Virus record (IMG/VR): IMGVR_UViG_3300027754_000039
Coordinates: 117,589 to 181,588 of that record
Origin: a virus
Length of the DNA stretch: 64,000 nucleotides
Reading direction: 5' to 3' (one strand)
Notes under the pieces: model-generated
The model's database searches: none
What the model was told of the DNA's origin: nothing
What the model saw: only the letters and a program-made list of their open reading frames with translations
Made by a program: the position numbers and the translations under genes
Shown here: piece by piece, positions 23,772 through 43,554 of the stretch
Position numbering within the stretch: position 1 is the first letter of the stretch
Layout: each line of letters begins with the position of its first letter

Positions 23772-23793
23772 TAGTCAGGACAGCTATCTGACT
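23772..23793 (-). pseudogene. Minihelix remnant of the AGTCAGG tRNA-like family
   Basis: AGTCAG-ATAGCTGTC-CTGACT-A: acceptor stem only. Confidence 0.55.
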
Positions 23794-23908
23794 AAATTAA
23801 TATTCTAGCAATAAGTCCTAAGACAAACCCCAGTATCAGAACAGTGTATACTTCCTTTTTCCATTTGGAATATTCTTTATCAAAATCTTTCATATTTTTT
23901 AATTTTAG

Positions 23909-23979
23909 TAGTCAGGACAGGATTCGAACCTGTACATTTAGAGCAGCGCCCTTTGTGTTTACCGTTTCACCACCTGACT
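23909..23979 (-). ncRNA. tRNA-like RNA A (non-canonical anticodon arm)
   Basis: Acceptor AGTCAGG/CCTGACT + A73; D arm GTGA..ACAC; T arm ACAGG-TTCGAAT-CCTGT; the anticodon arm is only AGGGC-GCT-GCTCT. Confidence 0.75.
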
Positions 23980-24197
23980 ATGGTGGGATCGCTATTTTTA
24001 AAGTAGGTGCTCTCCCACGAACTACTACCTTTTTCTGTTTATTGTTGAGTTACAAAAGATAAACGTCACCCAATCTCACCCTCCTTATAAATCCTTCCTG
24101 TGCACAGAACAAGAAACTGGGGAGGTGTTGTTTCTACTTTTCAGAGGCTTAATCTCCCTCATTTGACCGTTTAGCAGGTTGAAGCTGCACTTTGGCG

Positions 24198-24269
24198 TAC
24201 TCCCAAGCAGAATCGAACTGCCGTTTCATCCGTGAAAGGGACGTGTCCTAACCCCTAGACGATAGGAGC
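24198..24269 (-). tRNA. tRNA-Glu (TTC)
   Basis: GCTCCTA/TGGGAGT acceptor; CGTCC-CTTTCAC-GGATG anticodon arm; GGCAG-TTCGATT-CTGCT T arm; A73; CCA not directly encoded. Confidence 0.9.
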
Positions 24270-24272
24270 ATA

Positions 24273-24407
24273 TTAACGCTTATGAAAGCCTTTGGTCTTA
24301 ATATGTCTTTCAGGTTTACGCGTTTCTTCTTTTTTCTTAGTCTTTAAAGTCTCCATCCACTGCGTAAGACATTCAATTTTTAATTTTGTGTTTTTTACCT
24401 TTGCCAT
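24273..24407 (-). CDS. Small basic protein (44 aa)
   Basis: Manually translated MAKVKNTKLK...KGFHKR*. Confidence 0.45.
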   Translation of the reverse strand: MAKVKNTKLKIECLTQWMETLKTKKKEETRKPERHIKTKGFHKR

Positions 24408-24420
24408 GTTTTTTTATTTT

Positions 24421-24954
24421 TTAGTTATTAATCCAAACGTACTGTTTATTTAAGATGCGATTAGCATATTGGTTTATACGAGGTTTGCCAGTATTATAAG
24501 CTCCAAAAGCTAAGCCCCAATTTTGATATTTAGTATGTAATGTATTTAATAATTTCATTGAAATCATTACATTTAAATCAATATTAGAACGTAATTTATT
24601 TTTTTCAACTGCAGTGCCATATACCATCTTTGCTGTTGCTGGCATTATTTGCATTGGGCCTAAAGCTCCACATACAGATTGCTGTCTATGATTATAAAGA
24701 CTATCTAACGGGCCTTTGTATCTAGTTTCTTGATATGCTAATGAAAATGCATATTCTTCTGGAATATTATATTCTAAAGAATATTTTTTAATATAAAAAT
24801 ACATTTGTTTAGCTGGAGGAGACGTTGTAATTGTAATACTATCATATCCTAATAAATAAGGATCTGTGAACCCTATAGATTTTGTATTATTTAATGATAT
24901 TGAGCTATACAAAGCGACGCCCAAAGTTACTGCGACTGCTGTTAATTTAATCAT
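24421..24954 (-). CDS. Lytic transglycosylase (SLT domain) with N-terminal signal/anchor
   Basis: LAYQET (catalytic Glu), GPMQIMPATA, GAYNTG. Start moved to MIKLTAVAV. Confidence 0.85.
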   Translation of the reverse strand: MIKLTAVAVTLGVALYSSISLNNTKSIGFTDPYLLGYDSITITTSPPAKQMYFYIKKYSLEYNIPEEYAFSLAYQETRYKGPLDSLYNHRQQSVCGALGPMQIMPATAKMVYGTAVEKNKLRSNIDLNVMISMKLLNTLHTKYQNWGLAFGAYNTGKPRINQYANRILNKQYVWINN

Positions 24955-24985
24955 AACTTTTTTATTTTTAATAATTAAATATATA

Positions 24986-25252
24986 TTATTCATTTGTATT
25001 ATCCAAATTTTCTTTTGACCGATCCCAAATATTTGCAAACCTTTCAGATCCATTTATTCCTATATGCACATACTTAGTACCGTCATGTATTGACTGTGCT
25101 TTGTAAATCCATCGCTCTCCATTTTTCTTAAGCTCTAAAATTTTACAAACATAGTCGGCGGTTAAAAAAGTTACTGTAACAGTGTCTCCTATTTTAAAAG
25201 AAGGCTTTTTCATTTTCTCCGGAGGAGCTGTTTCTCTTTTCTTTTTAGCCAT
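24986..25252 (-). CDS. Small SH3/KOW-like hypothetical protein
   Basis: FKIGDTVTV followed by short beta strands. Confidence 0.45.
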   Translation of the reverse strand: MAKKKRETAPPEKMKKPSFKIGDTVTVTFLTADYVCKILELKKNGERWIYKAQSIHDGTKYVHIGINGSERFANIWDRSKENLDNTNE

Positions 25253-26538
25253 TATACAGTTCTTTTATTACCATGAATTACCTTTACCGTCGGAAATCTT
25301 AAACTATAATTTCCTGATTGGTTTTGAGTTTCTTCGAAATATTTAACGGTAATTATTTTATCAAGTATTTCATTTGGATTAGCTTTAAAGAACTCACGCT
25401 CTTCAATAGTAAAGCCAGATCCTACTGAAACTCTATTACCTTTATGCTCTATTACTACATTGGATAAAACATCTTTTGTAATTTCCAATCCATTCTCAAT
25501 CATTCTAAAAGGACCAAACTCTAAATCAATTACTGTATATTCAGCATCGTGAAATGATTTACACTTAAGCATATTTTTAGTACGTTTACCTTCATAAACA
25601 CGATTTTTACGCAGGATCAATCCTTCCCAACCTTTATTATCCGCTGATGTCATTAAGTCGGTAAATTGTCCAGGTTCTGTGATGATTTCCTGGGTTACCA
25701 ACTCTAAATACTTCATATCCTTAATTAACTTACATAAAGCATGGTATCTTAAAGAGTAGCTGCTAGCTCCTATCTTATCTCTGAATTCTTGACCTGTGAT
25801 AATATCAAATACTAAATACTTAGGATTGTCAATAGTATGATCCTTCTTACGAATTTGTTTCATAACACCTTGAAAGTCATCTGACCCGTCTTTGTTAGTT
25901 AAGCAAATTTCTCCGTCAAGCACTACATCCTTCATTCCTAAGCTAGCAATTTCATCTTCAACCTTTTTAAGAGTTTCAAATTGGTTACCTTGACGAGACC
26001 AAAGTGATACTTTGCCATTTTCATCTACAACACCTAAGCACCTTACTCCATCTAATTTTCTAGAAGCATACCAAGTATCTGCTGCAAAATCAACTTCTAC
26101 ATCTTCAAATGGAGTTGCTAATGCGACATCAAAGGTTGGAATTAAATCTGGAATGATTTTGTTAATTAAACTATCACCCATTCTAATTTCCAAATCCTTA
26201 CCAATAATCTTATAAATTAAATTTTTAAATTCTTCATGCTCGTAGCAAAAGTTATTTACAGAATTAATAGCTTTGTGACCAGTTACTTCTCGCTTACGTA
26301 AAATGTCAAGCATTTCAAACAAGTCCTTAAACTCATACAACACACCTAAGTCTTCACTGTAATTCTTTTCAAGAGTAGCCGGCGTTACATAATATTGATA
26401 AAATGGATTATATGTATAATACAATACCTTTTTAATGAACTCGTCATCTTTATACTTTTCCAAAATGACCTTTTTGTCATTTGTACTATTAGTTGAATTA
26501 AGCTCATCAACTACCTTTTGTAACAATTTAAAATCCAT
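25252..26538 (-). CDS. lig: ATP-dependent DNA ligase
   Basis: SRKLDGVRC (KxDG), VLDGE, FDI, EGLILR, KCKSFHDAE, LRFP; host-type promoter at 26562-26593. Confidence 0.93.
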   Translation of the reverse strand: MDFKLLQKVVDELNSTNSTNDKKVILEKYKDDEFIKKVLYYTYNPFYQYYVTPATLEKNYSEDLGVLYEFKDLFEMLDILRKREVTGHKAINSVNNFCYEHEEFKNLIYKIIGKDLEIRMGDSLINKIIPDLIPTFDVALATPFEDVEVDFAADTWYASRKLDGVRCLGVVDENGKVSLWSRQGNQFETLKKVEDEIASLGMKDVVLDGEICLTNKDGSDDFQGVMKQIRKKDHTIDNPKYLVFDIITGQEFRDKIGASSYSLRYHALCKLIKDMKYLELVTQEIITEPGQFTDLMTSADNKGWEGLILRKNRVYEGKRTKNMLKCKSFHDAEYTVIDLEFGPFRMIENGLEITKDVLSNVVIEHKGNRVSVGSGFTIEEREFFKANPNEILDKIITVKYFEETQNQSGNYSLRFPTVKVIHGNKRTV

Positions 26539-26599
26539 ATCTTATTATTTTTGTCTATACATTAAGATAAGATATCCTTTTCAATGTACCAAATTTATT

Positions 26600-26815
26600 T
26601 TAAAGATTTTCAAAAGAATTATCTATGCATTTAGATTTCAAATGAATTACTAAATTCCTTTTGGTTTCCAAATTTAAATCAGTATAGGTATTTAACCATG
26701 ACTCGAATTGTGATACTAATTTAGTAGACGTTCTCCATTGATCAATGGAATTAGAAGAGTTGATTATTTTTTCAACCCATTGTGTGATATACGTATAATT
26801 TGATTTTTTATCCAT
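26600..26815 (-). CDS. Hypothetical protein
   Basis: ORF with a host-type promoter layout upstream (about 26820-26851). Confidence 0.55.
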   Translation of the reverse strand: MDKKSNYTYITQWVEKIINSSNSIDQWRTSTKLVSQFESWLNTYTDLNLETKRNLVIHLKSKCIDNSFENL

Positions 26816-26852
26816 ACCCTAAATATAGGGTATTCATTTGGAAGTACCAAAT

Positions 26853-27284
26853 TTATTTTTTGATGGATCTTTCTCCTTTATGCTTGTCTATTTGATCAAG
26901 TATATTGTTTAGAAGCTTGGTTTTTATAAACCCTGCCATTGAGGCATTTTTAAGAGCACTGATGATTTGAAATATTAAAAATGGAGTTATGATAACTTCA
27001 CTTAACCAAGCAGTTCCGGTAAATCCTTTCTCTACCATTAGCGTAGCAGTTAATATAACAATCCAAGTAAATATATTTCTTAATACTTGAATGGCTTTAT
27101 AAGTCTTGAATCCTTCTCGTTTGATGCCGGCAATGATCCCAAAGAATCCGTCCATGAACATAACGGCTATCACTGCCATGTATTGTTCTATATTATTTGT
27201 CGTGACATCAAGTATATATGATAATACATATGCCGTTGATGCTGATATAGCGGCTATTAACCAGGAAAGTTTTGCACTAAACAT
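26853..27284 (-). CDS. Putative holin (phage holin family 4-like)
   Basis: Three TM helices; D.FFGIIAG and IISALKNASMAG motifs; basic C-terminal tail. Confidence 0.65.
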   Translation of the reverse strand: MFSAKLSWLIAAISASTAYVLSYILDVTTNNIEQYMAVIAVMFMDGFFGIIAGIKREGFKTYKAIQVLRNIFTWIVILTATLMVEKGFTGTAWLSEVIITPFLIFQIISALKNASMAGFIKTKLLNNILDQIDKHKGERSIKK

Positions 27285-27573
27285 TATTCTATTCTTAAGA
27301 AACGTTATTATTAATAATACAAAACTTTTGTAATAATTTTATTATAAATATCGTAATAAAATAAATTAATTGAATTTATTAATTGTTATTTTACAAAATC
27401 AGTATATAGGTTTTCAAGCTCGGAAATTATACCCAGTAATGCTATTAGTAATATACTAGCTATTCCAATTTTATCTAATACTGATTTCATATTTTGCCCC
27501 ATCCTTGGTGAATCCCACATTTAATTCTATACGACTCGATTATTGCTAAAAAATTAATTATCTTTTTCATAAT

Positions 27574-28824
27574 CTAATTGCTTAAAGGTGCTTTAATACT
27601 TGGATGTGATTGATAATTACTTAATTGCAAATCTTCTTCTAATAAACATCTACAAAAGTTTTCATCGTTAAATGCTTCAAATACTTTAACAGCATCTAAC
27701 GGTCCTTCACCACACTCACCACCTTCATAAGGCCAGAACTCTGTATTGATGTTTAATGTTGGTAGTTCAAATCTATCTCTACCAATCTGTTCTTTAGCTT
27801 GTTCAATATGATTTGAATATAAATGTGTATCACCTAAATTTCCAATCAATTCATCAGGAACCATATTAACAGCTTTAGCAATGATTTCTAATAACAATCC
27901 ATAAGATGCTATGTTAAATGGTAAACCAAGGAATGTATCTACTGAGCGTTGATTCCATATTAAAGAGATTGTTCTGGTTGGTATTTTGTAAGGTGTGTTA
28001 TCTACATTAGTAGGAACCATCATATCAGCTAAAGGCCCATATTTTTCTTTCCATATTGGAAGAGCTAGTTGATGTCTTTCTTCCATACTCAACTCTCTTG
28101 TATAAACTTGAAATCCATAATGACAAGGTGGAAGTGTCATTTGGTCTAATTCTCCAACATTCCAGCTATTAACCATTAATCGTCTTGAATCTGGATTTGT
28201 TTTAAGGTCGTTGATTAGGTTTGCGATTTGGTCTATTTGTTTAATTTCAACATCATACTTATGTTTTCTATAATTCATCATTCCGTCACGACTTACATAT
28301 GTGTTATGATTACTTAATTCATATGTTTCCCAACTTCTCCATTGCTTACCATAAATTGGACCTAACTCACCCCACTTTTTAGCAAACTCATCATCAGTTT
28401 TTATTTTGTTGATGAATTCTTCTTGTGTCAAATGACGAGTAGGGTGAGGAGATACTATAGAACGCCCATTTAACAAACACCAACCTTTATCCCTATTTTG
28501 ATAAAGAATGTTTGTATGATGGTCGTGTATTGTTGCTAGTGGATATTTTGTATAGTTCTTATAAGCATCACCATCCCATATATGGCAATCATTATCAACA
28601 AGGAATTTAATGTTAGTACTCCCTTGGAGGAACCATAACAACTCTGTTGCGATAAGCCGTAGTGGTATCTTTTTGGTTGTGAGTAAAGGAAACCCATCAC
28701 TCATTTTATGACGAATCTGTCTTCCGAATATACTTAAAACCTCACCATTACGAGTATTCTTCTTCACTCCATTATCTAAGATGTCTTGGAGTAGGTCTGT
28801 GTACTGTTTATCTAGGTTGTTCAT
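27574..28824 (-). CDS. thyA: Thymidylate synthase with large insertions
   Basis: GFPLLTTKK, ELLWFLQG, LGPIYGKQWR, PDSRRLMV, LPPCH, QRSVDTFLGLPFNIASY, GDTHLYSNH. Confidence 0.95.
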   Translation of the reverse strand: MNNLDKQYTDLLQDILDNGVKKNTRNGEVLSIFGRQIRHKMSDGFPLLTTKKIPLRLIATELLWFLQGSTNIKFLVDNDCHIWDGDAYKNYTKYPLATIHDHHTNILYQNRDKGWCLLNGRSIVSPHPTRHLTQEEFINKIKTDDEFAKKWGELGPIYGKQWRSWETYELSNHNTYVSRDGMMNYRKHKYDVEIKQIDQIANLINDLKTNPDSRRLMVNSWNVGELDQMTLPPCHYGFQVYTRELSMEERHQLALPIWKEKYGPLADMMVPTNVDNTPYKIPTRTISLIWNQRSVDTFLGLPFNIASYGLLLEIIAKAVNMVPDELIGNLGDTHLYSNHIEQAKEQIGRDRFELPTLNINTEFWPYEGGECGEGPLDAVKVFEAFNDENFCRCLLEEDLQLSNYQSHPSIKAPLSN

Positions 28825-29473
28825 TTTGCTTGTATTGTAGTAACATTAACTAACTCAGGTAGTTTACCTTCGGTTGATATTAATTTTTGATATTTTTCAT
28901 CTCCAACTATACCATCTATAGTCCATTCAGTTTTAATACCATTTTCATATAGTGGTATTGAGTATGTTGAAGGTAAGGGTTTAATAAACTCTTTACCATT
29001 TAAGTCCCATTTTTTATCTAGGTTGTTCATCTTTATTTAGTTTAGCAAATTTATGGATTGGTTTAAAATTGTCGTAAGGCATAAATTGTTCTATTATTTC
29101 AAATTCTACTTCTAGTCCATCATAGCTAGCATCAGTATCGCGTATGAATAATCCGGCAGCGTCATCAGGATGTAATGGTAGCATTCTTATACCATTTCCA
29201 TTTTTAGTGGTTGTGTCTGCCCACCATACCACCCAGTCAGCCGGTTCTATTCGTTTTACTAAACTACCTTTCATATTTTATTCTGTATATGGTTTCGTGA
29301 TTATTTTCTTTTACTACTTTTATATATTCCTTATTAAAATCATATGACTCTAAGTTATCCCACCTATCACTAAAACTTACTGTTGTTAGATTTGGTTCAA
29401 AGCTTTTTCCCCTAAGTCGAACTTCTTCCATATACTGATTTAGTTCAGATTGGGTTTTAATTAGTCTGACCAT
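28821..29473 (-). CDS. Three small hypothetical genes (28821-29030, 29014-29274, 29264-29473)
   Basis: Overlapping tiled ORFs; the first shares its first 18 nt with thyA. Confidence 0.55.
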
Positions 29474-29606
29474 TAATAATCTCGTTTAATCGTTTAATTT
29501 CAGCGATTACATCATCACCTAATTCTATTTTGGACATCATTGTTAAGTCCATTACTTGAGAGTGTAATACTTTGATTAACTCATCTTTTGCTTCTTCTTT
29601 GTTCAT
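29457..29606 (-). CDS. Small protein (49 aa), paralog of the C-terminus of 63598-63960
   Basis: Manually translated MNKEEAKDELIKVLHSQVMDLTMMSKIELGDDVIAEIKRLNEIINGQTN*. Confidence 0.7.
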   Translation of the reverse strand: MNKEEAKDELIKVLHSQVMDLTMMSKIELGDDVIAEIKRLNEIINGQTN

Positions 29607-29630
29607 AACTTATTTGTTTAATTTTAAAGT

Positions 29631-29655
29631 AAAAGGGCGGGATCCTTGCCCCGCC
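29631..29655 (-). terminator. Intrinsic terminator
   Basis: GGCGGG-GCAAGGAT-CCCGCC-CTTTT downstream of the lipoprotein gene. Confidence 0.7.
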
Positions 29656-29672
29656 TCTTAAATCATCTTAAC

Positions 29673-29849
29673 TTAGTTAACTGAAGTCGTGTCTACTGCT
29701 AATACTGACTCAGTTGTGATAGCAACTGTAGTGTCACAAGCAACAGCACAAGAATCAACCGGAGTTGTTTCAGAAGCTGGAGCGTTTGAACTACAAGAAG
29801 CGAATAATGCAACTGCAGCAATAGCTAGAACGAAAATTGAATTTTTCAT
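29673..29849 (-). CDS. Small Thr/Ala/Asp-rich lipoprotein (58 aa)
   Basis: Manually translated MKNSIFVLAIAAVALFAS^CSSNAPASETTPVDSCAVACDTTVAITTESVLAVDTTSVN*. Confidence 0.8.
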   Translation of the reverse strand: MKNSIFVLAIAAVALFASCSSNAPASETTPVDSCAVACDTTVAITTESVLAVDTTSVN

Positions 29850-29902
29850 TTTTCTTTTTTATTAATTGTTAAACATAAATATAAGGTACCTTTCTTATAT
29901 CG

Positions 29903-30273
29903 TGGACCCGGAGAGATTCGAACTCTCGTCCAAATTAAGTACTTCAATAAATTCATTTACAAGCTTAGTCTTGTTTTTCTAAACAGACAAAATAATCAAT
30001 TTTTTGGATCTTTAGAGAAATTGATAAAAACTGTGCAACCAGATAAGTCAGGCCTACTTCACTGTTTGTGCCCTTCTGTTCCTAGGATAGACACACCCCG
30101 TTAACTATGCTGCTATTGCAACTTCGTTGCTTACGAAAGACAATGCGTCTTCGAAAGTGAAATCAGAGATTTCGTTTGCGTTTAAGCTTTTATATAGGTT
30201 ATTAAAGAGTTTCCAATACTAACTCTGCTTGCATTTAAAGTAATACGCTTAACTGTCAAAACCGGTCGGGCCC
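29903..30273 (-). ncRNA. ssrA: tmRNA
   Basis: 5' GGGCCCG pairs with 3' CGGGTCC-A including G3-U70; T arm GAGAG-TTCGAAT-CTCTC; tag ORF 30105-30179 reads ANEISDFTFEDALSFVSNEVAIAA*; promoter at 30286-30317. Confidence 0.95.
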
Positions 30274-30322
30274 ATATTACTAGTATAAATATATAAATTT
30301 CTTATGAAACTTCCAAATTAAA

Positions 30323-30709: not shown

Positions 30710-30714
30710 AATAA

Positions 30715-30918: not shown

Positions 30919-30928
30919 ACTTTTTATT

Positions 30929-31141: not shown

Positions 31142-31193
31142 TTTATTTATTTTCTATATTGTAAAGATAAGATATTCTAATGTAAGTACCAAA

Positions 31194-32376: not shown

Positions 32377-32383
32377 ATATGTT

Positions 32384-34118: not shown

Positions 34119-35648
34119 ATCTTAATTTTATTTTGCATTACAGTAATACATTTAACGTCGGTACCGGTACCAACCCTGCGCTGATAAGATACTGTTTGAT
34201 AATAGCCAGTTACCAATTTCATATGCTGGGTTATAGTATCAAAGTTAATATTACCATAATCTGAAACTTCTAAATACTTTAAATAGCTAGCTTTAAGCGG
34301 ATGATCCAAATCCAAAGCTCGCACCCAACGTTTAATTTGCCGAGTAGTTACAATAGAACCTGTCGGAGCTGTATGTTTAAGAAACTTTTCAAACTCCTCT
34401 ATAAATTCTTTGTATCTTGAATCCATCTTATTATAATTTTTGAACTTGTTCCATGATATCAGTTACTTCATCTTCAGACAAATATCCAATCACGTCATTG
34501 GTGACAGAAGTATTGTATGTCAAATTCCCATGCTCATCTAGCACAGCTAGTTCATATAGACCTTCTTTACCTCCATATGTAAATGAAGTGCGAACTACGG
34601 ATACTCCATAGTCATTATCAAATGATAATCTTGACTGAATACCTTCACCCATGGCGTGAGTCTTGAATTCTAAATCTTTAAATGTTTTCATGTTATTTAT
34701 TTTTAAATAAAATTATTCCTCCTGTTAATGTAAGCCCAACTCCAATAGCACCAATACCATAGTTAAGAGCTAAATCTTTTGATAAGCTATATCCATTATA
34801 ACCATTAGGTAAATTTCGATTAATTCTTGATCTTTCCAACCAATAATTAATAGCACTGAACATTACACCTGACGCTAAAATCAAAGCTCCATTAGTGCGT
34901 AGCTCGTTAGGGTTTCTAATGTGTAAATTAATTTCACGAGTTTCGTTACCACGACTTAACATGTAAACCTTTGTCGAGTCCAACCCTCCAGCTTTACAAT
35001 ATAAAGTGGATAGGATAAATGCTGATATTAATATTTTTTTCATTTCTTTAAAATAAGTATTTCATTTGTATCTACCAAATTTATTTTACATCATTGTCAA
35101 TCCAACGCATTGATTTGTATAATTGCAATTCTAATAAGTCTAATAGGTAGTCTCTGATTTCTTCATACTCCCAACCTTCTTCAAGCATATCTTCCGTAAT
35201 CTTACTGATACTGAATTTTAATTCGATTAATGCTGTTTGGTTTATTAAGCTTTCAATTCGCTCTGTAGTGTGTTTGTCTAATCTCTTGTCCATAATATTA
35301 TTTTTATTTATCAAATCCAACAATTCCAAATTCAACTTCTTTACAAAACCCTTTTTCAACAAGGGTAGAATATTCTTGAGCTAACCACCAAGCTTGCAAC
35401 CTATCAACTTCTGCATGCATCTCTTCACGAATCTCTTCTCTGGCCATCATAGCAAATGTATAACCAGTTATGGACTTGGTCATCTCGTTGAGTTCTCCTG
35501 CTGTCCATTTGCGATTGTTAATAGCTTTTGTTATGTTCTCTTTCATCCGCGCAACAACCTTATCGTTATGTGCATACATTTCTTTACTGAATGGACGAGT
35601 GATAGTAACTCCATACTGCTCACCTAATACTTTTACTTTTGTTGCCAT
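34115..35648 (-). CDS. Five small hypothetical genes (34115-34426, 34431-34691, 34693-35043, 35081-35362, 35304-35648)
   Basis: Tiled minus-strand ORFs; 34693-35043 has a signal peptide and TM helices; promoter at 35048-35079. Confidence 0.55.
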
Positions 35649-35737
35649 AATATTATTTTTTAAGTATTAAAATTAATTTTAAAAAGCCGGCCATTATATA
35701 CAGCGCAGCTACTGCAACAGCTACTACTATTGCAATA

Positions 35738-36133: not shown

Positions 36134-36200
36134 ATTATAAGTCCAAAAGTTTTAATTATTTATATTGTTAATTTAAGTATTTCATTTGTATGTACCAAAT

Positions 36201-36776: not shown

Positions 36777-36777
36777 A

Positions 36778-37422
36778 CTATTTACATTTTAAATAAATAC
36801 ATTCCATTCCATTGCCATCGGTAAATTCTTCCGTAATGATATATCCTAATTGAGATCTTGTTGATAAATTGAAATTTGCAATTTCTTCATCAAGCGCTTT
36901 TTGTTCCATTGCGTAAATGCAAAATTCTCGATAATCAACTTCATCATTTTCAGTCCACCCACTATAAGATTCATTAACTTCTGCTATGTGCGCTATACAC
37001 GCTTCTAAAATTTCTTCCATGTTTTTTAGTTTTAGTTTTTTAATTATCAATTGATTAAATATACGTTAAAAAATTGCGTAATCCTTAAGATATATACTCT
37101 TCATAAATTTCCCTTAATCCATCTTCATCAATAATGAATGGATTCTCATCAGAACATAATCCAAATCTTCCATTATCATAACACATAAATTTATCTACTT
37201 CGAATTGCTCTATTTGAAATCCGTTTTCAATTAATTTTGCTAATACTTGTTCTGTTGTCATATTTTTCATGTTTTTTAGTTTGAAAATTCTTTTGTAATT
37301 AATTCGAGCCCTTTTGCATATTGCGCTTCAGTACAGTTACCAACAAGACGCATGGCATCTAAAATAAATTTTGCGTCTTTTTTAGTGGGCGCAGATTCCA
37401 CCATTGCTTTTATCTTTTTCAT
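36778..37422 (-). CDS. Three small genes (36778-37050, 37085-37270, 37276-37422)
   Basis: Tiled ORFs; the last was manually translated (MKKIKAMVESAPT...KEFSN*) and follows promoter 37458-37489. Confidence 0.55.
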
Positions 37423-37457
37423 AGTATGTTGTTTTACATATAGGAATTACCTATACA

Positions 37458-37566
37458 TAAATTTAAGTAATTAATTGCCAATTACCAAATAGTAGCGAAA
37501 GATAATTGACTTGAGAATCAAGGAGTTACGAAATAGCGGTATAACCTTTTGACACTCAATTGGATA
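37458..37566 (-). promoter_or_regulatory. Promoter + tandem palindrome element E1
   Basis: -7 box 37458-65, -33 box 37486-89, TTGA-nnn-TCAA cores starting at 37511 and 37549. Confidence 0.75.
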
Positions 37567-38177
37567 CATTTGCGGCATTCTATAACCGCCTATCATCCCT
37601 AGAGTGTATTAAGGTATTGACCCGGGGAAGATCGACTGTGTACGGGGTGTATTTGAAGGTGGGTTTTCATGGTCTATATGTCATTGATACTTAAGTGGTT
37701 ATAAAGACGTAATGTATTGATACTCAATAGGTTGCGTGATTTCCATTATATAAAGGCCTGGGTTGGGGGAAGAAATAGCCCGCAGATTGTTCAGATTTTA
37801 TTTGGTAGTTTGAAAAATTTTACTATGAGAAGACCGGCGCGGTTTACCATAGGTCGTTCTATAGCTAGCGCCAGTAAATTAAATTTATTGCATTGGGCTT
37901 AGGCAAAGAGCCTAAGGGGAGTTATAAGGGCACCTTATCCTCCCAAAACCAGGTCTATATGAAAAAACTTATTGTCTCAATTGATACGTGGTATAGGCCC
38001 CAGCGACCGAATATTTTCATTGGGTTTCAGTGATATTCACCCTTGATTTACGGGGGTTGAAACCCTTGATATACTAGGGTTTTACGTGATTTACCCTTGA
38101 TCTATAGACTGATATCTAGGGAGTACCCTAGGTCTACACCCGTTAAACCCCTTGATTTACATAGGGTTTGTATAGGT
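37567..38177. other. Non-coding, GC-enriched region with palindromes and CCCTTGAT repeats
   Basis: No credible ORF. Palindrome cores at 37684 and 37717; CCCTTGAT at 38040, 38063, 38094, 38149 (fifth copy at 38195). Confidence 0.6.
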
Positions 38178-38633
38178 CTACCCTAGGTTGATAACCCTTG
38201 ATGCATCTCTATAAGGTTGCGCCATGATTCGAAATGCTGGATCCATACCTATATTGATGTAAGATGTCCAATGGCGTATCCATTCTGATTTGTATACTTG
38301 AGTAAATTCTCGAGTAGCTATATTGAGTTCTCGAGCTATATCGAGTCCTTTACTCCAAGCTTGATACTCTTGCTCTATAACTAGCGCTTGATCTGATTTG
38401 CTGTATCTATATATAGATAGTAGTTCACTATTAGAGCATTGAGTATGCCCCGCTTCGTGTAATAAAGCGCATAGTAACTTTTGAGTATGCGTGTATTGTT
38501 TAGGAGCGTGTATTGTGTCTGTATCTGTATCTAAATAATAAGAGCTGGAATCGTATTTTACAGAGTAGCCCCGGGAAGAGAGATACTTCTCTATTCTTCC
38601 CTGAGCAATTTTAAAGTCTATGATATTAAACAT
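38178..38633 (-). CDS. HEXXH metallopeptidase-like protein (ImmA/IrrE-like)
   Basis: ALLHEAGH followed by EQEYQAW. Confidence 0.6.
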   Translation of the reverse strand: MFNIIDFKIAQGRIEKYLSSRGYSVKYDSSSYYLDTDTDTIHAPKQYTHTQKLLCALLHEAGHTQCSNSELLSIYRYSKSDQALVIEQEYQAWSKGLDIARELNIATREFTQVYKSEWIRHWTSYINIGMDPAFRIMAQPYRDASRVINLG

Positions 38634-40797
38634 TACGAACGAATAATTTATTCAATGATAATGATAATTGAGTTAAGTTATTGATGTCAATCATTTCTGC
38701 ATTCTTACCATACATTTCTTGAAAACGTATACGAGAACGATCCAAACCATAATTGCTGTCTGATACAAAATAGGATAACACCTTGATGCCATTCTTACGC
38801 ATTTTGTCTACTTGTGCTTTGGTATGCTTAATAGCATAGTCACCACCGTATTGGATATTTTGATCTGAGTATCCTGGCTCACCGTCTGATATATTAATGA
38901 AGTACATTTCTTTACCATTAGCCGATGCAATAACCTCTTTCATAACAGCTTGAAAGCATAACCCTTCAGGAGTGGATCCACTACAACATACTGCATAAGC
39001 CTTATGTCTAAATTGCTCGAACTTATCTTTACGTGAATCATATACAACCCACATCAAAGGAGTTTGATTACCATAATTACCCATTGTACCTCTTGCGGAT
39101 ATAACTACATCCATAGATGATATCATTGATGCTGCTTTGGCAATGGCTATTGAAGTTTTCATTGAAGCTTCCCATTTAGATCCATGCATTGATCCTGACG
39201 CATCCACTGATATATGTATTAGTGAAGGAGTCACTGTATTGTGTATAGTTTGAGTAAATACATGATCATTACCAAAGCCTAATTCTGCAACCAATCTTCT
39301 GTCAATGCGACCTGTTTCCATTCTTGTTGTCTTAAGAGTTCTATCTTCATCACGCGTCTTTAAACGCTTACCTAATAGTGTACCTAGAACAATACCTTCA
39401 GCAACATAATCTTTACCCCAACCATTGGTAATATTAGCTTTATATTCTTCTGGGTCTTGAGCTTGAGAACCTAACAGGTCAGAATCAATTAAATTCTTAT
39501 TAATTCCTTTAACTACTGTGCAATTAGTTCTATTTCCATTATGTCTATTGCTAGTGTCATTTGGAATATCGCCACCCACAGACTCCAAAGTCATATTAGA
39601 TTCAGCAGCGGCATTTACTTTATTAGCTTCTGACTTAGATAGTGATTTCTTTTTAATCTTACCATCTAAAAAGTCTTTTTGCTTTTGTATAGCGTCTGCT
39701 AAATCCTTAGCCTTTTTAGCCTGCTTAGGATCTACCTTACCTTGTTGTGCTTGAGCGTCACCGCCATCTTCAGATGTACTCTCTCCCTGCATATCCATAT
39801 TAGGATCTGCTCCTGCTCCACCCATTTCATCATTCTCATCTTCATTGATGTCAGCTCCGTTGCCACCATCTCCTGGATTTGTTTTATCTTCTTCTTCGGG
39901 CTGACCGTCCCCAGGACCACTGCCTTGAATTCTATCCAACCCACCAATGTCATTACAAATAGCTTTGAATACCTCGCCGGCTACTTCAAATACTGCAGAG
40001 GTAGACTTAAGGCGAGAGATATCTCGAATATTAATAAGATCCCATATCTCTTGCAATGCTGGTAGAGTATTAAGCTGTCTATTAGGATTGGCAAAGTTAA
40101 CAATATGGAATATGTAATCATCCCAGGTGCGTTCACATTTCACTCCACTAAGCAATGCCTCGTCTATTTCCTTGGCATTGAAATACTTATCATACAAGGC
40201 TTTGTAATAACCTTGATACCCAGGAGCCGAATCATACACAAATCTATCTATACGTCTATCCTCAATAATATTAACTAGATCTTTAATCTTAGGTGCTACG
40301 TCATATCCGTCACAGACTTGTCCCGGAAAGTAATTAGTATGCCATTCCTTCATTCTTTCTATAAAGCTAGAGGAAGTTAATAAATTTGTTTTAGTGACAG
40401 TGAAATCGGTTAAGGCAATATGACTACCTTCGTGTAATGCTAATCCTACAGTGGCGTCAAATTCTTTCTCATCCAATTTAGCTGAGATAACTACTTGCTT
40501 ACCGTCCGTATAGGATTGGTTACCTGAAGAATACATAACCTTAATGTCATCCTTATTGGTTACAATTCTAACGAAGTTACCTATTGCTCTTTTATAAGCA
40601 GCTAGCTTAACAATATTCACGGTAGCTTTTTCCTTAATGGAAAGACTGTCATCCTTTGCTAGGAAATCGTCATCCAACCAAAAGCTGGAATTGGAATAGG
40701 TTGATTTATAAGGACTTTTATACCCCGAAGAGTAATACCCTGATGTCCATTTATTTACTTGCTTAGTAAGGGCCTTGGTGCTAAATTTCTTTGCCAT
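38626..40797 (-). CDS. vWA-domain protein with N-terminal HEXXH region and acidic linker
   Basis: GLALHEGSH; NIIEDRRID; MIDAS DASGSM, TPEG, ISDGEP. Confidence 0.85.
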   Translation of the reverse strand: MAKKFSTKALTKQVNKWTSGYYSSGYKSPYKSTYSNSSFWLDDDFLAKDDSLSIKEKATVNIVKLAAYKRAIGNFVRIVTNKDDIKVMYSSGNQSYTDGKQVVISAKLDEKEFDATVGLALHEGSHIALTDFTVTKTNLLTSSSFIERMKEWHTNYFPGQVCDGYDVAPKIKDLVNIIEDRRIDRFVYDSAPGYQGYYKALYDKYFNAKEIDEALLSGVKCERTWDDYIFHIVNFANPNRQLNTLPALQEIWDLINIRDISRLKSTSAVFEVAGEVFKAICNDIGGLDRIQGSGPGDGQPEEEDKTNPGDGGNGADINEDENDEMGGAGADPNMDMQGESTSEDGGDAQAQQGKVDPKQAKKAKDLADAIQKQKDFLDGKIKKKSLSKSEANKVNAAAESNMTLESVGGDIPNDTSNRHNGNRTNCTVVKGINKNLIDSDLLGSQAQDPEEYKANITNGWGKDYVAEGIVLGTLLGKRLKTRDEDRTLKTTRMETGRIDRRLVAELGFGNDHVFTQTIHNTVTPSLIHISVDASGSMHGSKWEASMKTSIAIAKAASMISSMDVVISARGTMGNYGNQTPLMWVVYDSRKDKFEQFRHKAYAVCCSGSTPEGLCFQAVMKEVIASANGKEMYFINISDGEPGYSDQNIQYGGDYAIKHTKAQVDKMRKNGIKVLSYFVSDSNYGLDRSRIRFQEMYGKNAEMIDINNLTQLSLSLNKLFVRNV

Positions 40798-40821
40798 ATC
40801 TTATATATTAATGTCTATTCA

Positions 40822-40918
40822 TAAATTTAAGTATTTACTTTCTAAATTCCTAATCTTTTCGAAAGATTTACGGCTTGATACTCAATGAGTTATAAGTCAT
40901 TGATACTTAAGTAGTTAC
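40822..40918 (-). promoter_or_regulatory. Promoter + tandem palindrome element E2
   Basis: -7 box 40822-29, -33 box 40850-53, cores at 40875 and 40900. Confidence 0.85.
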
Positions 40919-40925
40919 GGTATAT

Positions 40926-40949
40926 AAGGAAAGGGGGTGCAACACCCCC
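40926..40949 (-). terminator. Intrinsic terminator after the AAA gene
   Basis: GGGGGTG-TTG-CACCCCC followed by TTTCCTT. Confidence 0.65.
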
Positions 40950-40968
40950 ACTCCAACCATAAAAAATA

Positions 40969-42105
40969 TTATTTTGCTATATCGTCTGCTCCGAATAAAT
41001 CACTTTTGGTCTCTTCAGGATTAATACAATATTTTTGTACTATTTGTTTTACATAGGTACGCTCCGAGTCAACTCCTCCATCCTCGCTAAAGAAAGGATA
41101 TATACCAACCTCAGCGGCTTCTGTCAAACTAAACCCATCATATATTAATGATGTCAACTCCACAGCAGCACGAGTGGATAGCGAGTTAGTCAATTTAGGA
41201 TTAGATGACTTACACTCCTTACGAGTTTGAGAAGCGATCTCTGCAATTGCTTGCACAGCTTCTGTCTGCGCTGCTGGATACTTCATCTTTAATAAAGCGA
41301 ATTCCATTTGCTCATCTAATTGATCCATTTCAATAGTGATGAATCGATCCTGCAACGCTCTATCCATTACACGAGTGGAAGTATACTCATTACCTACGTT
41401 TGCTGTGGCAATGAAACTCACACCTGGTGCTACCTTAATAGTCGGAGCTCCGTCTTTTTCATCAAGGCGTAAATACCTTTGATTAAGATCCAATACAGTC
41501 ATTAAGATGTTCCAAGCTTCAGGATGAGCTCTAGATAATTCATCTAACAGGATGACTGCATTTTCTGTCTGGATTGCTTTAACGAATAATGACTCCGCAA
41601 AGTAAGTACCATCTTCTTTTGAGAAGTGAGTATTACCTATCAAGGTAGCACGCGGATCTTGAGTGGCGCCTAAGTTAAAATAAAAGTCTGGACGCTCCAA
41701 TGCACTAACTAAATACTTAGCGGCCATTGTCTTACCTGTTCCTGCAGGACCTGTCATCATGATATTCCTACCACGCATTGCTGAGCGTACAAGATATTTC
41801 CATTTCAGGTCACTCATGATTAACTGCTCCGGCTTAAGACCAGTGGAGGCGTGGATGAATGTTTTCATTACATCATGCTCGCTATTAGCAGCTATCAATT
41901 CCACAGGAGTGTCTACCTGTGCTTGCATTGCGCTGGTCGCAAATGCCCATTCATTGGTTACATTATCCAATACTAATTGTGCTCCCTTTTCTGCCGCTGC
42001 ACGTCTAAGTGAGCGATCAATTTGGTTAGACACATCCTTACCTTCAGCGGTAATGGCTTTCAAAAAACGACCTTCTTGGGTCACGGTTGCAATTGTTACT
42101 TTCAT
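40969..42105 (-). CDS. MoxR/CobS-like AAA+ ATPase
   Basis: Walker A GPAGTGKT; Walker B ILLDE; FIATAN; DRALQDRF; STR. Confidence 0.9.
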   Translation of the reverse strand: MKVTIATVTQEGRFLKAITAEGKDVSNQIDRSLRRAAAEKGAQLVLDNVTNEWAFATSAMQAQVDTPVELIAANSEHDVMKTFIHASTGLKPEQLIMSDLKWKYLVRSAMRGRNIMMTGPAGTGKTMAAKYLVSALERPDFYFNLGATQDPRATLIGNTHFSKEDGTYFAESLFVKAIQTENAVILLDELSRAHPEAWNILMTVLDLNQRYLRLDEKDGAPTIKVAPGVSFIATANVGNEYTSTRVMDRALQDRFITIEMDQLDEQMEFALLKMKYPAAQTEAVQAIAEIASQTRKECKSSNPKLTNSLSTRAAVELTSLIYDGFSLTEAAEVGIYPFFSEDGGVDSERTYVKQIVQKYCINPEETKSDLFGADDIAK

Positions 42106-42137
42106 ATTTTTTATTTTTATGGTTAATTCCTTCTTCT

Positions 42138-42235
42138 TAAATTTAAGTATTTAATTCCTTATATCCTAATCTTTAGGCAAATTAAATGCCTTAGTACTCA
42201 ATGAGTTATATAACCCATTGGTTATCAATTAGTTA
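42138..42235 (-). promoter_or_regulatory. Promoter + tandem palindrome element E3
   Basis: -7 box 42138-45, -33 box 42166-69, variant cores at 42191 and 42218. Confidence 0.8.
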
Positions 42236-42690
42236 TTTTTTCTAAAGGCATAGCAAGACCAATATTTGGATCCTACTGCCTTATATTGCGCTTGGCTATA
42301 TAAATTAGATCTAGACCAATCCTGATTAATGTGACCCACTGTCATATTAGCTAACATATCACTGTCAATAGTGGTAATTTTATTACCTGTTCTTGCAAAC
42401 ACCTTAAACCAATAATCCGAACCTGCCGGCTTGAATTCTATTGTTTGTAAAGCACCTTTTTGAAAATTAGTAAACAAATCTAATGCATTAGCCCATTGTA
42501 TTTTATTAAATCTTACAAAACCTAAATCATCTACTACGGTCAAACCTCCTTTGGTTTTAACTATTGCTCTATATGAGCCTTTGCGGCCTTGAATATTGTC
42601 AACTCGAGCTCTTTGTATTTCTGGAGTTACTACTACTAATTCCGGGGTTGTATATTCCGGGTTGAATGGGGTGGTTTTCATCTTTTTCAT
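42229..42690 (-). CDS. Hypothetical protein
   Basis: ORF between E4 and E3; its stop codon lies inside the E3 palindrome. Confidence 0.65.
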   Translation of the reverse strand: MKKMKTTPFNPEYTTPELVVVTPEIQRARVDNIQGRKGSYRAIVKTKGGLTVVDDLGFVRFNKIQWANALDLFTNFQKGALQTIEFKPAGSDYWFKVFARTGNKITTIDSDMLANMTVGHINQDWSRSNLYSQAQYKAVGSKYWSCYAFRKNN

Positions 42691-42716
42691 ATGTCTTATT
42701 TATTAATGTCTATACA

Positions 42717-42823
42717 TAAAGTTAAGTATTTAATTCCTATAATCCTAATCATTTGACAAAATAAGGCCATTGAGTATCAAGGAGTTACAGAAATCTGCAT
42801 CTTATTGAGTATCAATAAGTTAC
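42717..42823 (-). promoter_or_regulatory. Promoter + tandem palindrome element E4
   Basis: -7 box 42717-24, -33 box 42745-48, cores at 42770 and 42805. Confidence 0.85.
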
Positions 42824-42840
42824 AGTAGGTTTCATATACC

Positions 42841-42890
42841 TGTTGGCCCCTTACTCCTACCGGGGGTTCCGGGATCGTTCCTACCGAACA
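42841..42890 (-). ncRNA. Putative promoter-driven small RNA
   Basis: GC-rich folded segment directly after promoter 42894-42925; no ORF. Confidence 0.45.
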
Positions 42891-42990
42891 TGATAAAGAT
42901 AAGAAGAATTTTTCAATCTACCAAATCTATTTTACAGTAGGAAAGGATGCCACCCCTGACATCCCCTCCATTAGACATGAACAATATTTG

Positions 42991-43073
42991 TAGTCAGGGC
43001 AGGAATTGAACCTGCTGCCGTGATGGTAATGTTACAAATTTCTCACGAGCGCAACCATTGCGACTACCTGACT
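42991..43073 (-). ncRNA. tRNA-like RNA B (Tyr-GTA-like loop on an extended, bulged arm)
   Basis: AGTCAGG/CCTGACT-A; T arm GCAGG-TTCAATT-CCTGC; arm TCGTGA-GA-AAT-[TT GTA AC]-ATT-ACCA-TCACGG. Confidence 0.7.
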
Positions 43074-43286
43074 AAGCCTTACCTTGAGATTACTGGTAAG
43101 TAGTTATTTCGGTTTTCTATTTCTACAAAACCTGCGAGGCATCCCTCATGAAAAGTACCAACACTACTAGGAGAGAATGTGTCCATCTCTTTATCCTAAG
43201 AAGTCCCGCTCTGGCCGTAGACTTTCTGCCAACCTATTGTTAAATGAGTCTTAGGTCAAAGACTGCTGAGTATCTCTTACTCATTG

Positions 43287-43372
43287 TAGTCAGAACAGGA
43301 TTTGAACCTGTATCTTTAGGGCAACGCCCTTTAGGGCAACGCCCTTTGTGTTTACCGTTTCACCACCTGACT
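43287..43372 (-). ncRNA. tRNA-like RNA C (near-copy of A with a duplicated hairpin)
   Basis: Same D arm as A; 15-nt AAAGGGCGTTGCCCT tandemly duplicated in the anticodon position. Confidence 0.75.
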
Positions 43373-43485
43373 ATATTTAGGAAAGCAGAAGATGGGTGTG
43401 TGGACATCTACTTTTACGATTAGCATTACTTTGACTTCATTCAGTCCCCTCTCCCGCATGAGCAGTATTCCCTAATCAACCTTTG

Positions 43486-43554
43486 TAGTCATAGCAGGAC
43501 TCGAACCTACACCTTCCCAATACGAATTGGGGCTCTACATTGAGCTATATGACT
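43486..43554 (-). ncRNA. tRNA-like RNA D (6-nt anticodon loop)
   Basis: AGTCATA/TATGACT-A; GCTC..GAGC D stem; CCCAA-TTCGTA-TTGGG; GTAGG-TTCGAGT-CCTGC. Confidence 0.7.

What the first reader, a model, noticed from the sequence alone, without database searches (positions are those of the whole stretch)
23772..43554. Family of tRNA mimics: conserved acceptor and T arms, defective anticodon arms
Seen: four full elements (23909-23979, 42991-43073, 43287-43372, 43486-43554) and a minihelix (23772-23793) share an A1-U72 acceptor stem AGTCA(GG/TA), A73, a preceding T and a following C. The four full ones keep a proper T stem-loop, but each anticodon arm is non-canonical in a different way: 3-nt loop; extended bulged arm with a TT-GTA-AC loop; 15-nt hairpin duplication; 6-nt loop. 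Elements A and C are near-identical though 19 kb apart. Element D's acceptor changes are compensatory (TA/TA). Inference: selection keeps the elbow and acceptor but not decoding, consistent with RNase P/Z processing signals, decoys for tRNA-targeting defences, or sponges for synthetases or CCA enzyme.
Basis: partly seen in the sequence, partly recalled or inferred. Interest (0 to 1): 0.8.

Follow-up and report, generated by a model that had tools for sequence, protein, structure and literature searches.

The report
Phage tRNA-shaped RNAs without anticodons
An uncultured freshwater phage carries four conserved genes for RNAs that keep the ends and elbow of a tRNA but cannot read codons; they belong to a very large phage RNA family whose only studied look-alikes (stable RNAs of phages T5 and T4) still have no known job.

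Summary
Observation confirmed. The window belongs to a 181.6-kb uncultured phage record that CheckV rates complete. It holds four minus-strand tRNA-shaped genes (Rfam tRNA 30-50 bits) that share an acceptor stem, A73 and a T arm. None has a 7-nt anticodon loop. A 22-nt hairpin looks like a remnant.

They are not decaying pseudogenes:
- Each type has orthologues in other phage contigs.
- The A type is 90-96% identical where the adjacent tRNA-Glu is only 63-76%.
- The D type keeps its 6-bp arm through two double compensatory changes.
- One A-type orthologue sits alone between two terminators.

They belong to a large, essentially phage-only family built on a tRNA-Leu-like body with a variable centre. 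It occurs in at least 120 IMG/VR contigs but gave only 28 hits among the genomes of 185,579 prokaryote species. The flanking T and C are not special: all 144 canonical tRNA genes in these contigs have C at position 74.

Closest known are T5 RNA1/RNA2 and T4 rnaC, stable tRNA-like RNAs of unknown function.

Most likely the host tRNA pathway matures them into stable, non-decoding tRNA bodies that act through tRNA-binding partners. A and C carry the E. coli LeuRS identity set. The function is untested. The scan has found this family before on other DNA.

The parts
23909..23979 (-). Element A: 71-nt tRNA-shaped RNA gene. It has a Leu-type D arm and a T arm. The central arm is a 5-bp stem with a 3-nt loop.
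   Evidence: Rfam tRNA 48.6 bits; fold; orthologues 90-96% identical
43287..43372 (-). Element C: a paralogue of A with a tandem 15-nt duplication (units 43333-43347 and 43318-43332). The duplication lengthens the central arm.
   Evidence: Rfam 48.5 bits; alignment A2; fold z -4.2
42991..43073 (-). Element B: 83-nt tRNA-shaped RNA. A compact hairpin stands in place of the D arm, and the central arm is extended and bulged.
   Evidence: Rfam 30.2 bits; model R1 51.9 bits (but B was in the training set); fold z -2.8; orthologue L321:7515-7599
43486..43554 (-). Element D: 69-nt tRNA-shaped RNA with a compensated acceptor variant and a class-I-like D arm. The central arm is a 6-bp stem with a 4-nt loop.
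   Evidence: Rfam 49.6 bits; ARAGORN tRNA-???; orthologues L302/L324 and L325/L326 with compensatory changes
23772..23793 (-). 22-nt hairpin made of the 5' and 3' acceptor halves. It is probably an internal-deletion remnant of an element. It starts inside the stop codon of a 33-aa ORF.
   Evidence: only one comparable truncated copy in 2.7 Mb of related loci
24198..24269 (-). The genome's only canonical tRNA (Glu, UUC), 218 nt upstream of A on the same strand. This arrangement is conserved in L125.
42945..42964 (-). 7-bp hairpin followed by a U-rich stretch, 27 nt after B. It is a possible end of the D-C-B transcript.
   Evidence: read from the sequence; region fold z -2.7; inference
42918..42940 (-). 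Recurrent promoter-like motif holding a TAnnTTTG box. It probably starts the next transcription unit.
   Evidence: inference from the known Bacteroidota -7 consensus
23792..23893 (-). 33-aa hydrophobic micro-ORF. It starts 15 nt after the 3' end of A.
   Evidence: not conserved in the fetched loci

Best explanation
The four elements are genes for non-decoding, tRNA-shaped small RNAs. They belong to a large phage family derived from a tRNA-Leu-like body.

Proposed course:
1. They are transcribed on the gene strand together with neighbouring genes and tRNAs. In some relatives they have their own promoter and terminator.
2. The host enzymes that mature the phage's real tRNAs cut them out. RNase P cuts at the 5' end. 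The 3' pathway for tRNA genes that encode C74 but not CCA trims the other end, and the host then adds CCA.
3. They fold into an L shape. The anticodon arm is replaced by a closed helix, so they cannot read codons.
4. They act through proteins that recognise the tRNA body (acceptor end and elbow).

A and C keep every element that E. coli LeuRS needs, and that enzyme ignores the anticodon, so they are probably leucylated.

My preferred mode of action is competitive binding: a decoy or sponge for a tRNA-directed host factor, such as a tRNA-targeting defence nuclease or toxin, or LeuRS. I rate it only slightly above a 'carrier of a functional central insert' role.

Shown: gene anatomy, conservation, covariation, family size and phage restriction.
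Inferred: transcription, processing, CCA addition, charging and the partner.
For: tRNA shape. Rfam 30-50 bits and cloverleaf folds.

No decoding. No 7-nt loop in any element or orthologue.

Selection on the window's own types:
- A type is 90-96% identical across eight other contigs, against 63-76% for the adjacent tRNA-Glu and about 44% aa for a neighbouring protein.
- D type has two double compensatory changes in the central stem, and the loop keeps its first three bases.
- In the L126 A-type orthologue four acceptor pairs are replaced on both strands.
- Family alignment A5: 97.8% of cells paired, 12 of 15 pairs with double changes, 0 of 500 shuffles as high.

Handled like tRNAs:
- Same flanks as the 144 canonical tRNAs in the same contigs. 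C74 is 100% in those and 98% here, never CCA in the 144 canonical tRNAs and rarely here. T at -1 is 72% against 85%.
- The elements lie inside tRNA clusters in relatives.
- The L126 copy is a stand-alone unit between two terminators.

Host dependence:
- No phage CCA enzyme, RT or RtcB was found; the T4 Rnl1 search was uninformative because its control genomes also gave no hit.
- No co-located protein family in more than 13 of 120 loci.

Leu identity:
- A73, U8-A14, A15-U48 and G18G19 are present in A and C.
- The review PMC9976931 states that these suffice and that the anticodon arm is dispensable for E. coli LeuRS.
- Model R1's best T4 hit is tRNA-Leu.

Body rather than tip under selection. 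In the B type, acceptor, D-like hairpin and T arm are identical in L321 while the tip of the arm has diverged.
Against: - No expression, end-mapping, charging or binding data exist; the phage and its host are uncultured.
- The A-type alignment alone shows conservation but no double compensatory change in aligned columns.
- Four variant rows of A5 came from a scan that required pairing, which inflates the result.
- D lacks G18G19 and B lacks a normal D arm, so the Leu-charging idea covers only A and C.
- The central inserts of the wider family are very diverse. That is as easily read as different payloads as an arms race.
- No antisense target was found in the phage's own genome. That test says nothing about host targets.
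Confidence: 0.5

Rival explanations
1. tRNA chassis for payload RNAs. The tRNA body only provides processing and stability, as in the engineered tRNA scaffold. The central insert is the active part: a regulator, an aptamer or a protein-binding hairpin.
For: - The centre is hypervariable in length (elements of 52-191 nt) and in sequence across 185 unique family members, while the ends stay constant.
- Each central type is conserved among its orthologues.
- Central parts are somewhat more structured than shuffles (mean z -0.6, 8.6% below -2).
Against: - In this window three of the four centres are bare capped helices of 13-16 nt (30 nt after the duplication in C), which leaves little room for a payload.
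- The tip of the B arm diverges while the body stays identical.
- There is no complementarity to the phage's own genome beyond chance.
- No shared motif exists among the centres.
- It does not explain why nearly all members use a Leu-type body.
Confidence: 0.28
2. Pure processing signals (punctuation). The elements exist only so that RNase P and the 3' enzymes cut polycistronic transcripts. This would define mRNA ends as plant mitochondrial t-elements do, and the excised RNA would be a by-product.
For: - The elements lie between co-directional ORFs.
- The upstream ORF ends 72 nt before D.
- A micro-ORF starts 15 nt after A, with an A-rich leader.
- A-rich trailers are common in the family.
Against: - RNase P needs only the acceptor and T arm, yet the D arms and central arms are conserved and covary.
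- B is followed by a terminator-like hairpin, not by an ORF.
- The L126 orthologue stands alone between two terminators.
- The micro-ORFs are not conserved.
Confidence: 0.1
3. Decaying tRNA pseudogenes left over from a shrinking phage tRNA cluster.
For: - This phage has only one canonical tRNA, whereas its relative L321 has seven.
- The 22-nt hairpin looks like a deletion remnant.
- C carries a tandem duplication.
Against: - Orthologues with the same non-canonical arms occur in several diverged phages and are more conserved than a real tRNA.
- Stems show compensatory changes.
- Rfam scores are as high as for true tRNAs.
Confidence: 0.04
4. A DNA-level mobile or recombination cassette. The palindromic ends would be recognised by a recombinase or homing enzyme, which would explain the constant ends and exchangeable centres.
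For: - The 8-nt ends are inverted repeats of each other.
- The same ends flank unrelated centres in hundreds of contigs.
- Homing endonucleases sit in the T4 and T5 tRNA clusters.
Against: - The conserved parts are not only the ends but a full D arm and T arm that fit the tRNA model.
- Stems covary as RNA helices do, including G-U pairs, which are strand-specific.
- No transposase, integrase or endonuclease family recurs next to the elements.
- A-type orthologues are syntenic, so they were inherited vertically.
Confidence: 0.04

Closest known systems
Phage T5 RNA1 and RNA2 (NC_005859, annotated 'tRNA-like stable RNA with unknown functions'); also T5 RNA3 and RNAX
   Same: - They sit inside a phage tRNA cluster among small ORFs.
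- RNA1 aligns to the family model with an acceptor stem, a D arm whose core matches the family's Leu-type D arm, a central insert of about 85 nt and a T arm.
- RNA2 has the family's T-arm sequence.
- Their function is unknown.
   Different: - The acceptor sequences differ, and T5 RNA1 does not have A73.
- Model scores of 25-28 bits are no better than for ordinary T5 tRNAs, so common descent is not shown.
- The T5 RNAs carry long inserts, whereas A, C and D here have minimal capped helices.
- The record annotates the T5 RNAs as stable RNAs; here nothing is known about expression.
Phage T4 rnaC (species 1 RNA) and rnaD, small stable RNAs of the T4 tRNA cluster
   Same: - They lie at the end of the tRNA cluster on the same strand.
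- The 3' part of rnaC has a T arm and an acceptor-like stem, and scores 24.6 bits with model R1.
- Their function is unknown.
   Different: - The tRNA likeness is much weaker (below the Rfam threshold).
- There is no Leu-type D arm.
- The acceptor is different.
Bacterial class II tRNA-Leu (Rfam RF00005)
   Same: - 3-bp D stem, A14, A15-U48, G18G19, A73 and a T loop of standard sequence.
- The best T4 hit of the family model is tRNA-Leu.
- The D-arm sequence of A and C recurs in genuine phage tRNA-Leu genes.
   Different: - There is no anticodon loop and no Leu anticodon.
- A and C have no long variable arm.
- B and D lack the Leu-type D arm.
Engineered tRNA scaffold for recombinant RNA (Ponchon and Dardel design; PMC3753655), and natural tRNA-like processing products (mascRNA; plant mitochondrial t-elements, PMC1920247)
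   Same: The design principle is the same: a tRNA body with the anticodon arm replaced, relying on the cell's tRNA-processing enzymes.
   Different: Those are man-made or eukaryotic/organellar. There is no sequence relation. In t-elements the function lies in the cut mRNA ends, not in the excised RNA.
tmRNA and YrlA-type bacterial Y RNAs (tRNA mimics)
   Same: They have a tRNA-like acceptor and T arm without decoding. tmRNA also carries a large insert in place of the anticodon arm, and one is encoded in this window.
   Different: - tmRNA has the G3-U70 alanine identity, a tag ORF and pseudoknots; here the pair is U3-A70 and there is no ORF.
- YrlA has permuted connectivity (the ends lie in the 'anticodon' stem); here the ends lie at the acceptor.
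- Rfam models of both give no match to the four elements.

Membership tests
Canonical decoding tRNA (RF00005) | Cloverleaf with a 7-bp acceptor stem, a 5-bp T stem and a standard T loop | tested here: met
   48.6, 48.5, 49.6 and 30.2 bits against a threshold of 29; folds
Canonical decoding tRNA (RF00005) | 7-nt anticodon loop with U33 and a 3-base anticodon on a 5-bp stem at the standard distance | tested here: not met
   ARAGORN finds none, or a 2-base 'anticodon'. The Rfam alignments show deletions or insertions in the loop. Folds give 3- and 4-nt loops, or a displaced loop in B.
Phage tRNA-Leu-body RNAs with variable centre (metagenomic family; not found described in the papers searched) | Acceptor AGTCAGG/CCTGACT (or a compensated variant) with A73 | tested here: met
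   A, B and C match exactly; D is compensated at two pairs. The same ends occur in at least 120 viral contigs.
Phage tRNA-Leu-body RNAs with variable centre (metagenomic family; not found described in the papers searched) | Leu-type D arm (3-bp stem, A14, A15, G18G19) and U48 | tested here: inconclusive
   Met by A and C. D has a class-I-like 4-bp D arm without GG. B has a 5-bp hairpin with a 3-nt loop instead.
Phage tRNA-Leu-body RNAs with variable centre (metagenomic family; not found described in the papers searched) | Constant T arm, and a non-decoding centre that differs between paralogues | tested here: met
T5 RNA1/RNA2 and T4 rnaC stable RNAs | Location in a phage tRNA cluster, same strand | tested here: met
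   A lies 218 nt after tRNA-Glu. Orthologues in L321, L125 and L142 lie inside tRNA clusters. For T4 and T5.
T5 RNA1/RNA2 and T4 rnaC stable RNAs | Sequence homology to those RNAs | tested here: inconclusive
   Model R1 scores them at 24.6-28.1 bits, the same range as unrelated tRNAs. The D-arm core of T5 RNA1 matches the family's.
T5 RNA1/RNA2 and T4 rnaC stable RNAs | Accumulation as a discrete stable RNA in infected cells | not testable with these tools
   Uncultured phage; no transcript data at hand.
Substrates of bacterial LeuRS (E. coli identity set, PMC9976931) | A73, A15-U48, G18G19, U8-A14 and an intact D/T-loop elbow; anticodon arm not required | tested here: inconclusive
   All sequence elements are present in A and C, and only some in B and D. 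The rule is taken from the review. Charging itself is not testable here.
tmRNA | G3-U70, tag reading frame, pseudoknots | tested here: not met
   The pair is U3-A70. There is no tmRNA match to the elements. The genome's true tmRNA is at 29900-30273.
YrlA / Y RNA-like tRNA mimics | Permuted tRNA-like module with the ends in the Ro-binding stem | tested here: not met
   The ends are at the acceptor stem. No Rfam match at E up to 1.

The most novel reading that the evidence does not exclude
These are a new class of phage counter-defence RNAs. They would be anticodon-less tRNA bodies that the host matures, and in the case of A and C charges with leucine. They would then soak up or block host factors that attack tRNAs through the body, acceptor end or variable region. 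Candidates are Septu, retron-Eco7 and OLD-type nucleases, or nucleotidyltransferase toxins. The hypervariable centre of the wider family would be the trace of an arms race.
Probability: 0.15. Interest if true: 0.85.

Novelty: new variant of a known kind. Interest (0 to 1): 0.66.

Why it matters
Stable tRNA-like RNAs have been known in T4 and T5 for about fifty years without a function.

This window, with its relatives, shows that such RNAs are not oddities of two laboratory phages. They form a very large, strongly conserved, essentially phage-only family.

It also offers the simplest members yet: a bare tRNA body with the decoding loop closed off. These minimal forms are convenient for direct tests of RNase P cleavage, CCA addition, leucylation and protein partners, and for tests against tRNA-targeting defences.

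If they prove to be decoys or non-ribosomal aminoacyl carriers, that would add a new kind of RNA tool to phage-host conflict.

Tried and rejected
- **Close relatives in cultured phages.** No record in the phage collection holds both halves of the body; only T-arm pieces in ordinary tRNAs matched.
- **Relatives through the neighbouring 153-aa protein.** The peptide scan found none. A syntenic relative (L302) came later through a DNA pattern.
- **Exact search with D's central arm.** It gave only chance hits in coding DNA. The D-arm pattern and a metagenome scan then found orthologues.
- **Antisense or sense matches of the four centres in the phage's own genome.** At chance level.
- **Shared motif among 163 family centres.** None found; an extra T-loop-like hairpin occurs in only 6.
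- **Structure in the spacers between the elements.** z -1.1, -0.7 and +0.9, so not notable. Only the 300 nt after B reach -2.7.
- **Phage-encoded CCA-adding enzyme, reverse transcriptase and RtcB.** Absent.
- **T4 Rnl1.** The search was uninformative, because its control found nothing anywhere.
- **A protein partner encoded next to the elements.** No family occurs in more than 13 of 120 loci, and the top ones are ordinary phage genes.
- **Sigma-70 promoter scan.** Not above shuffles.
- **Conservation of the micro-ORFs.** None.
- **Intron readings.** Group I and archaeal-type introns were rejected by reasoning. The centres are too short, and no anticodon-stem halves flank them.
- **The 2026 preprint on three bacterial tRNA-mimic families.** It covers other RNAs with different connectivity.
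- **The 2023 survey of viral structured RNAs.** It does not describe this family.
- **One coordinate-finding script.** I read the coordinates from get_sequence instead.
Full report
**What is there.** The window is the last 64 kb of a 181,588-bp IMG/VR virus record that CheckV rates complete. It has about 32% G+C, and its genes lie almost all on the minus strand. Neighbouring genes are typical of a large lytic phage: DNA ligase, thymidylate synthase, a lytic transglycosylase and a MoxR/CobS-like ATPase.

ARAGORN and Rfam find one canonical tRNA (Glu-UUC, 24198-24269), one tmRNA (29900-30273) and four further matches to the tRNA model. These are A 23909-23979 (48.6 bits), C 43287-43372 (48.5), D 43486-43554 (49.6) and B 42991-43073 (30.2; threshold 29). 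All lie on the minus strand. The whole genome holds no other copy.

A, B and C share the acceptor AGTCAGG/CCTGACT. D has AGTCATA/TATGACT, changed on both strands. All four have A73 and a normal T arm. None has a 7-nt anticodon loop:
- A has a 5-bp stem closed by three bases.
- C is a paralogue of A, with 6 differences in 71 positions. Its 15-nt hairpin unit is duplicated in tandem, and the two copies pair into one long arm.
- D folds into a 6-bp stem with a 4-nt loop.
- B has a long bulged arm, and a compact hairpin where the D arm should be.

The 22-nt hairpin at 23772-23793 consists of the two acceptor halves with little between them. It begins inside the stop codon of a 33-aa ORF.

**Not pseudogene decay.** Each type has orthologues in other uncultured phages.

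*A type.* Pattern scans with the central hairpin or the D arm of A retrieved A-type genes in eight further distinct contigs. Several of these contigs are syntenic with the window. L125 has the tRNA-Glu, spacer, A-type order, and L145 and L252 carry a homologue of the 138-aa ORF downstream.
- The RNAs are 90-96% identical to A over their whole length, central hairpin included.
- The adjacent tRNA-Glu genes are only 63-76% identical.
- The neighbouring protein is about 44% identical.
- Within the A-type alignment all stems stay paired (97.5% of cells). Changes in aligned columns are one-sided only.
- The L126 orthologue has a re-registered acceptor, GTCAAGG/CCTTGAC, in which four pairs are replaced on both strands.
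- That copy is also a stand-alone unit. An intrinsic terminator precedes it, a TAnnTTTG-like box lies 4 nt before its first base, and a second terminator follows. This argues that the RNA itself is the product.

*D type.* Orthologues are L302/L324 and L325/L326, and L302 is syntenic. They keep the unusual acceptor and D arm. The 6-bp central stem shows two double compensatory changes, and the 4-nt loop keeps its first three bases.

*B type.* The orthologue in L321 sits in a canonical tRNA cluster next to a tmRNA with a similar tag. Its acceptor, D-like hairpin, base of the long arm and T arm are identical to B. The tip of the arm has diverged.

**A large family.** Many carry two to six copies. 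The same pattern gave only 28 hits among the representative genomes of 185,579 prokaryote species. Most are freshwater Bacteroidota MAG contigs.

The 185 unique elements share the acceptor, a D arm of tRNA-Leu type and the T arm. The centre is unrelated between copies, and total length runs from 52 to 191 nt.

In the same 1.04 Mb, a generic scan found 144 canonical tRNAs with other, diverse acceptor stems. Most non-canonical elements use AGTCAGG or one-step variants.

Compensated variants exist, for example AGTTAGA/TCTAACT and AGCCAAG/CTTGGCT, with matching T-stem changes. On a 55-sequence alignment 97.8% of cells pair, 12 of 15 pairs show double changes, and no shuffle reaches this. One caveat applies: four variant rows were found by a scan that demanded pairing.

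The centres are A-rich and only slightly more structured than shuffles. They share no motif.

**Flanks.** All 144 canonical tRNA genes of these contigs have C at position 74 and none encodes CCA. T at -1 occurs in 72% of them. The elements show 98% and 85%. The window's tRNA-Glu and tmRNA follow the same rule. The elements therefore carry the same processing context as real tRNAs. U at -1 is the known preference of bacterial RNase P (my knowledge, not tested here).

**Mechanism.**
- *Shown:* tRNA-shaped genes that cannot decode and are under strong purifying selection. They lie on the gene strand, in or near tRNA clusters, and are restricted to phages.
- *Inferred:* maturation by host RNase P and the 3' pathway plus CCA addition. 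The phage encodes no CCA enzyme, RT or RtcB; the T4 Rnl1 search was uninformative. No protein family recurs next to the elements.
- *Leu identity:* A and C carry A73, U8-A14, A15-U48 and G18G19. According to the identity review PMC9976931, these define E. coli leucine identity. Variants lacking the anticodon and variable arms remain chargeable. A Leu-type body is therefore a natural choice for a tRNA that must stay 'tRNA-like' without an anticodon. Charging remains an inference, and it does not cover B and D.
- *Body or centre:* in this window the centres are little more than capped helices, and in the B type the body is conserved rather than the tip. I therefore lean towards the body being the active part, as a decoy or sponge for a tRNA-directed factor. 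Recent work shows that defences cut tRNAs in the variable loop or remove the anticodon arm, and that phage tRNAs may act as decoy or supplement (PMC13096335). The payload-carrier reading is nearly as likely. Pure punctuation, pseudogene and DNA-cassette readings fit the data poorly (see the rival explanations).

**Known relatives.**
- The T5 record annotates RNA1 and RNA2 as 'tRNA-like stable RNA with unknown functions', and several more stable RNAs lie among its tRNA genes.
- T5 RNA1 aligns to my family model with an acceptor stem, the same Leu-type D-arm core, a centre of about 85 nt and a T arm (28.1 bits).
- T4 rnaC has a weaker tRNA-like 3' part.
- Scores are in the range of unrelated tRNAs, so these are the same design but not demonstrably the same family.
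- I found no paper describing the metagenomic family.
- Earlier agents of this scan described the same family on other genomes. My reading was formed before that look-up and agrees with theirs. The T5 lead came from one of those notes, and I checked it here.

**Verdict.** The feature is real, conserved and non-decoding. It is a new, minimal variant of the phage 'tRNA-like stable RNA' kind, and its function is open.

Noticed in passing
L005-L124 (120 viral loci); window 24198-24269 and 29900-30273: All 144 canonical tRNA genes in these phage contigs have C at position 74, and none encodes CCA (the next bases are mostly AA or TA). The window's tRNA-Glu and tmRNA follow the same rule. This points to a particular 3'-end maturation requirement in these phages or their hosts.
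   Followed up: partly
window 29900-30273 (-); L321:5358-5785: The phage encodes a full tmRNA (101.8 bits). A related contig carries a tmRNA with a similar tag peptide next to its tRNA cluster.
   Followed up: no
window 27574-28824 (-): The thymidylate synthase is 416 aa long, and the 266-position Pfam profile is spread over residues 6-415. That implies an insertion of about 150 aa of unknown nature.
   Followed up: no
window 42918-42940, 35072-35094, 26586-26608 (-): A recurrent promoter-like motif contains a TAnnTTTG box, the Bacteroidota -7 consensus. This fits a Bacteroidota host. A 40-nt stretch around the first copy recurs three times in L126.
   Followed up: partly
L142:407-469 (-): A freshwater-1 RNA (RF02979, 75.6 bits) lies between a canonical tRNA-Leu and the A-type orthologue.
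   Followed up: no
L321:7252-7351 (-); L042:2616-2686; L043:13391-13458; L057:6420-6518: Further non-decoding tRNA-shaped genes have quite different acceptor stems. Non-decoding tRNA-shaped genes are therefore not confined to the AGTCAGG acceptor used to find this family.
   Followed up: partly
L205, L216, L231, L246 and others: Phage tRNA genes with a UAA (Leu) anticodon share the D arm of A and C, yet have only a 5-nt variable region instead of the long arm of bacterial tRNA-Leu.
   Followed up: no
L328:13433-13504 (T5 record 41432-41503): A tRNA-like match (30 bits with model R1) lies inside the 719-nt T5 'RNAX' stable RNA.
   Followed up: no
window 38626-42105 (-): A MoxR/CobS-like AAA+ ATPase (378 aa) lies next to a 723-aa protein that has no Pfam or PHROG match.
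   Followed up: no
L173:6800-6881 (Hymenobacter montanus isolate contig): The only hit in a cultured bacterium is a tRNA-like stretch that carries the family's 3' end, but its 5' side does not pair with it. ARAGORN calls no tRNA there.
   Followed up: partly
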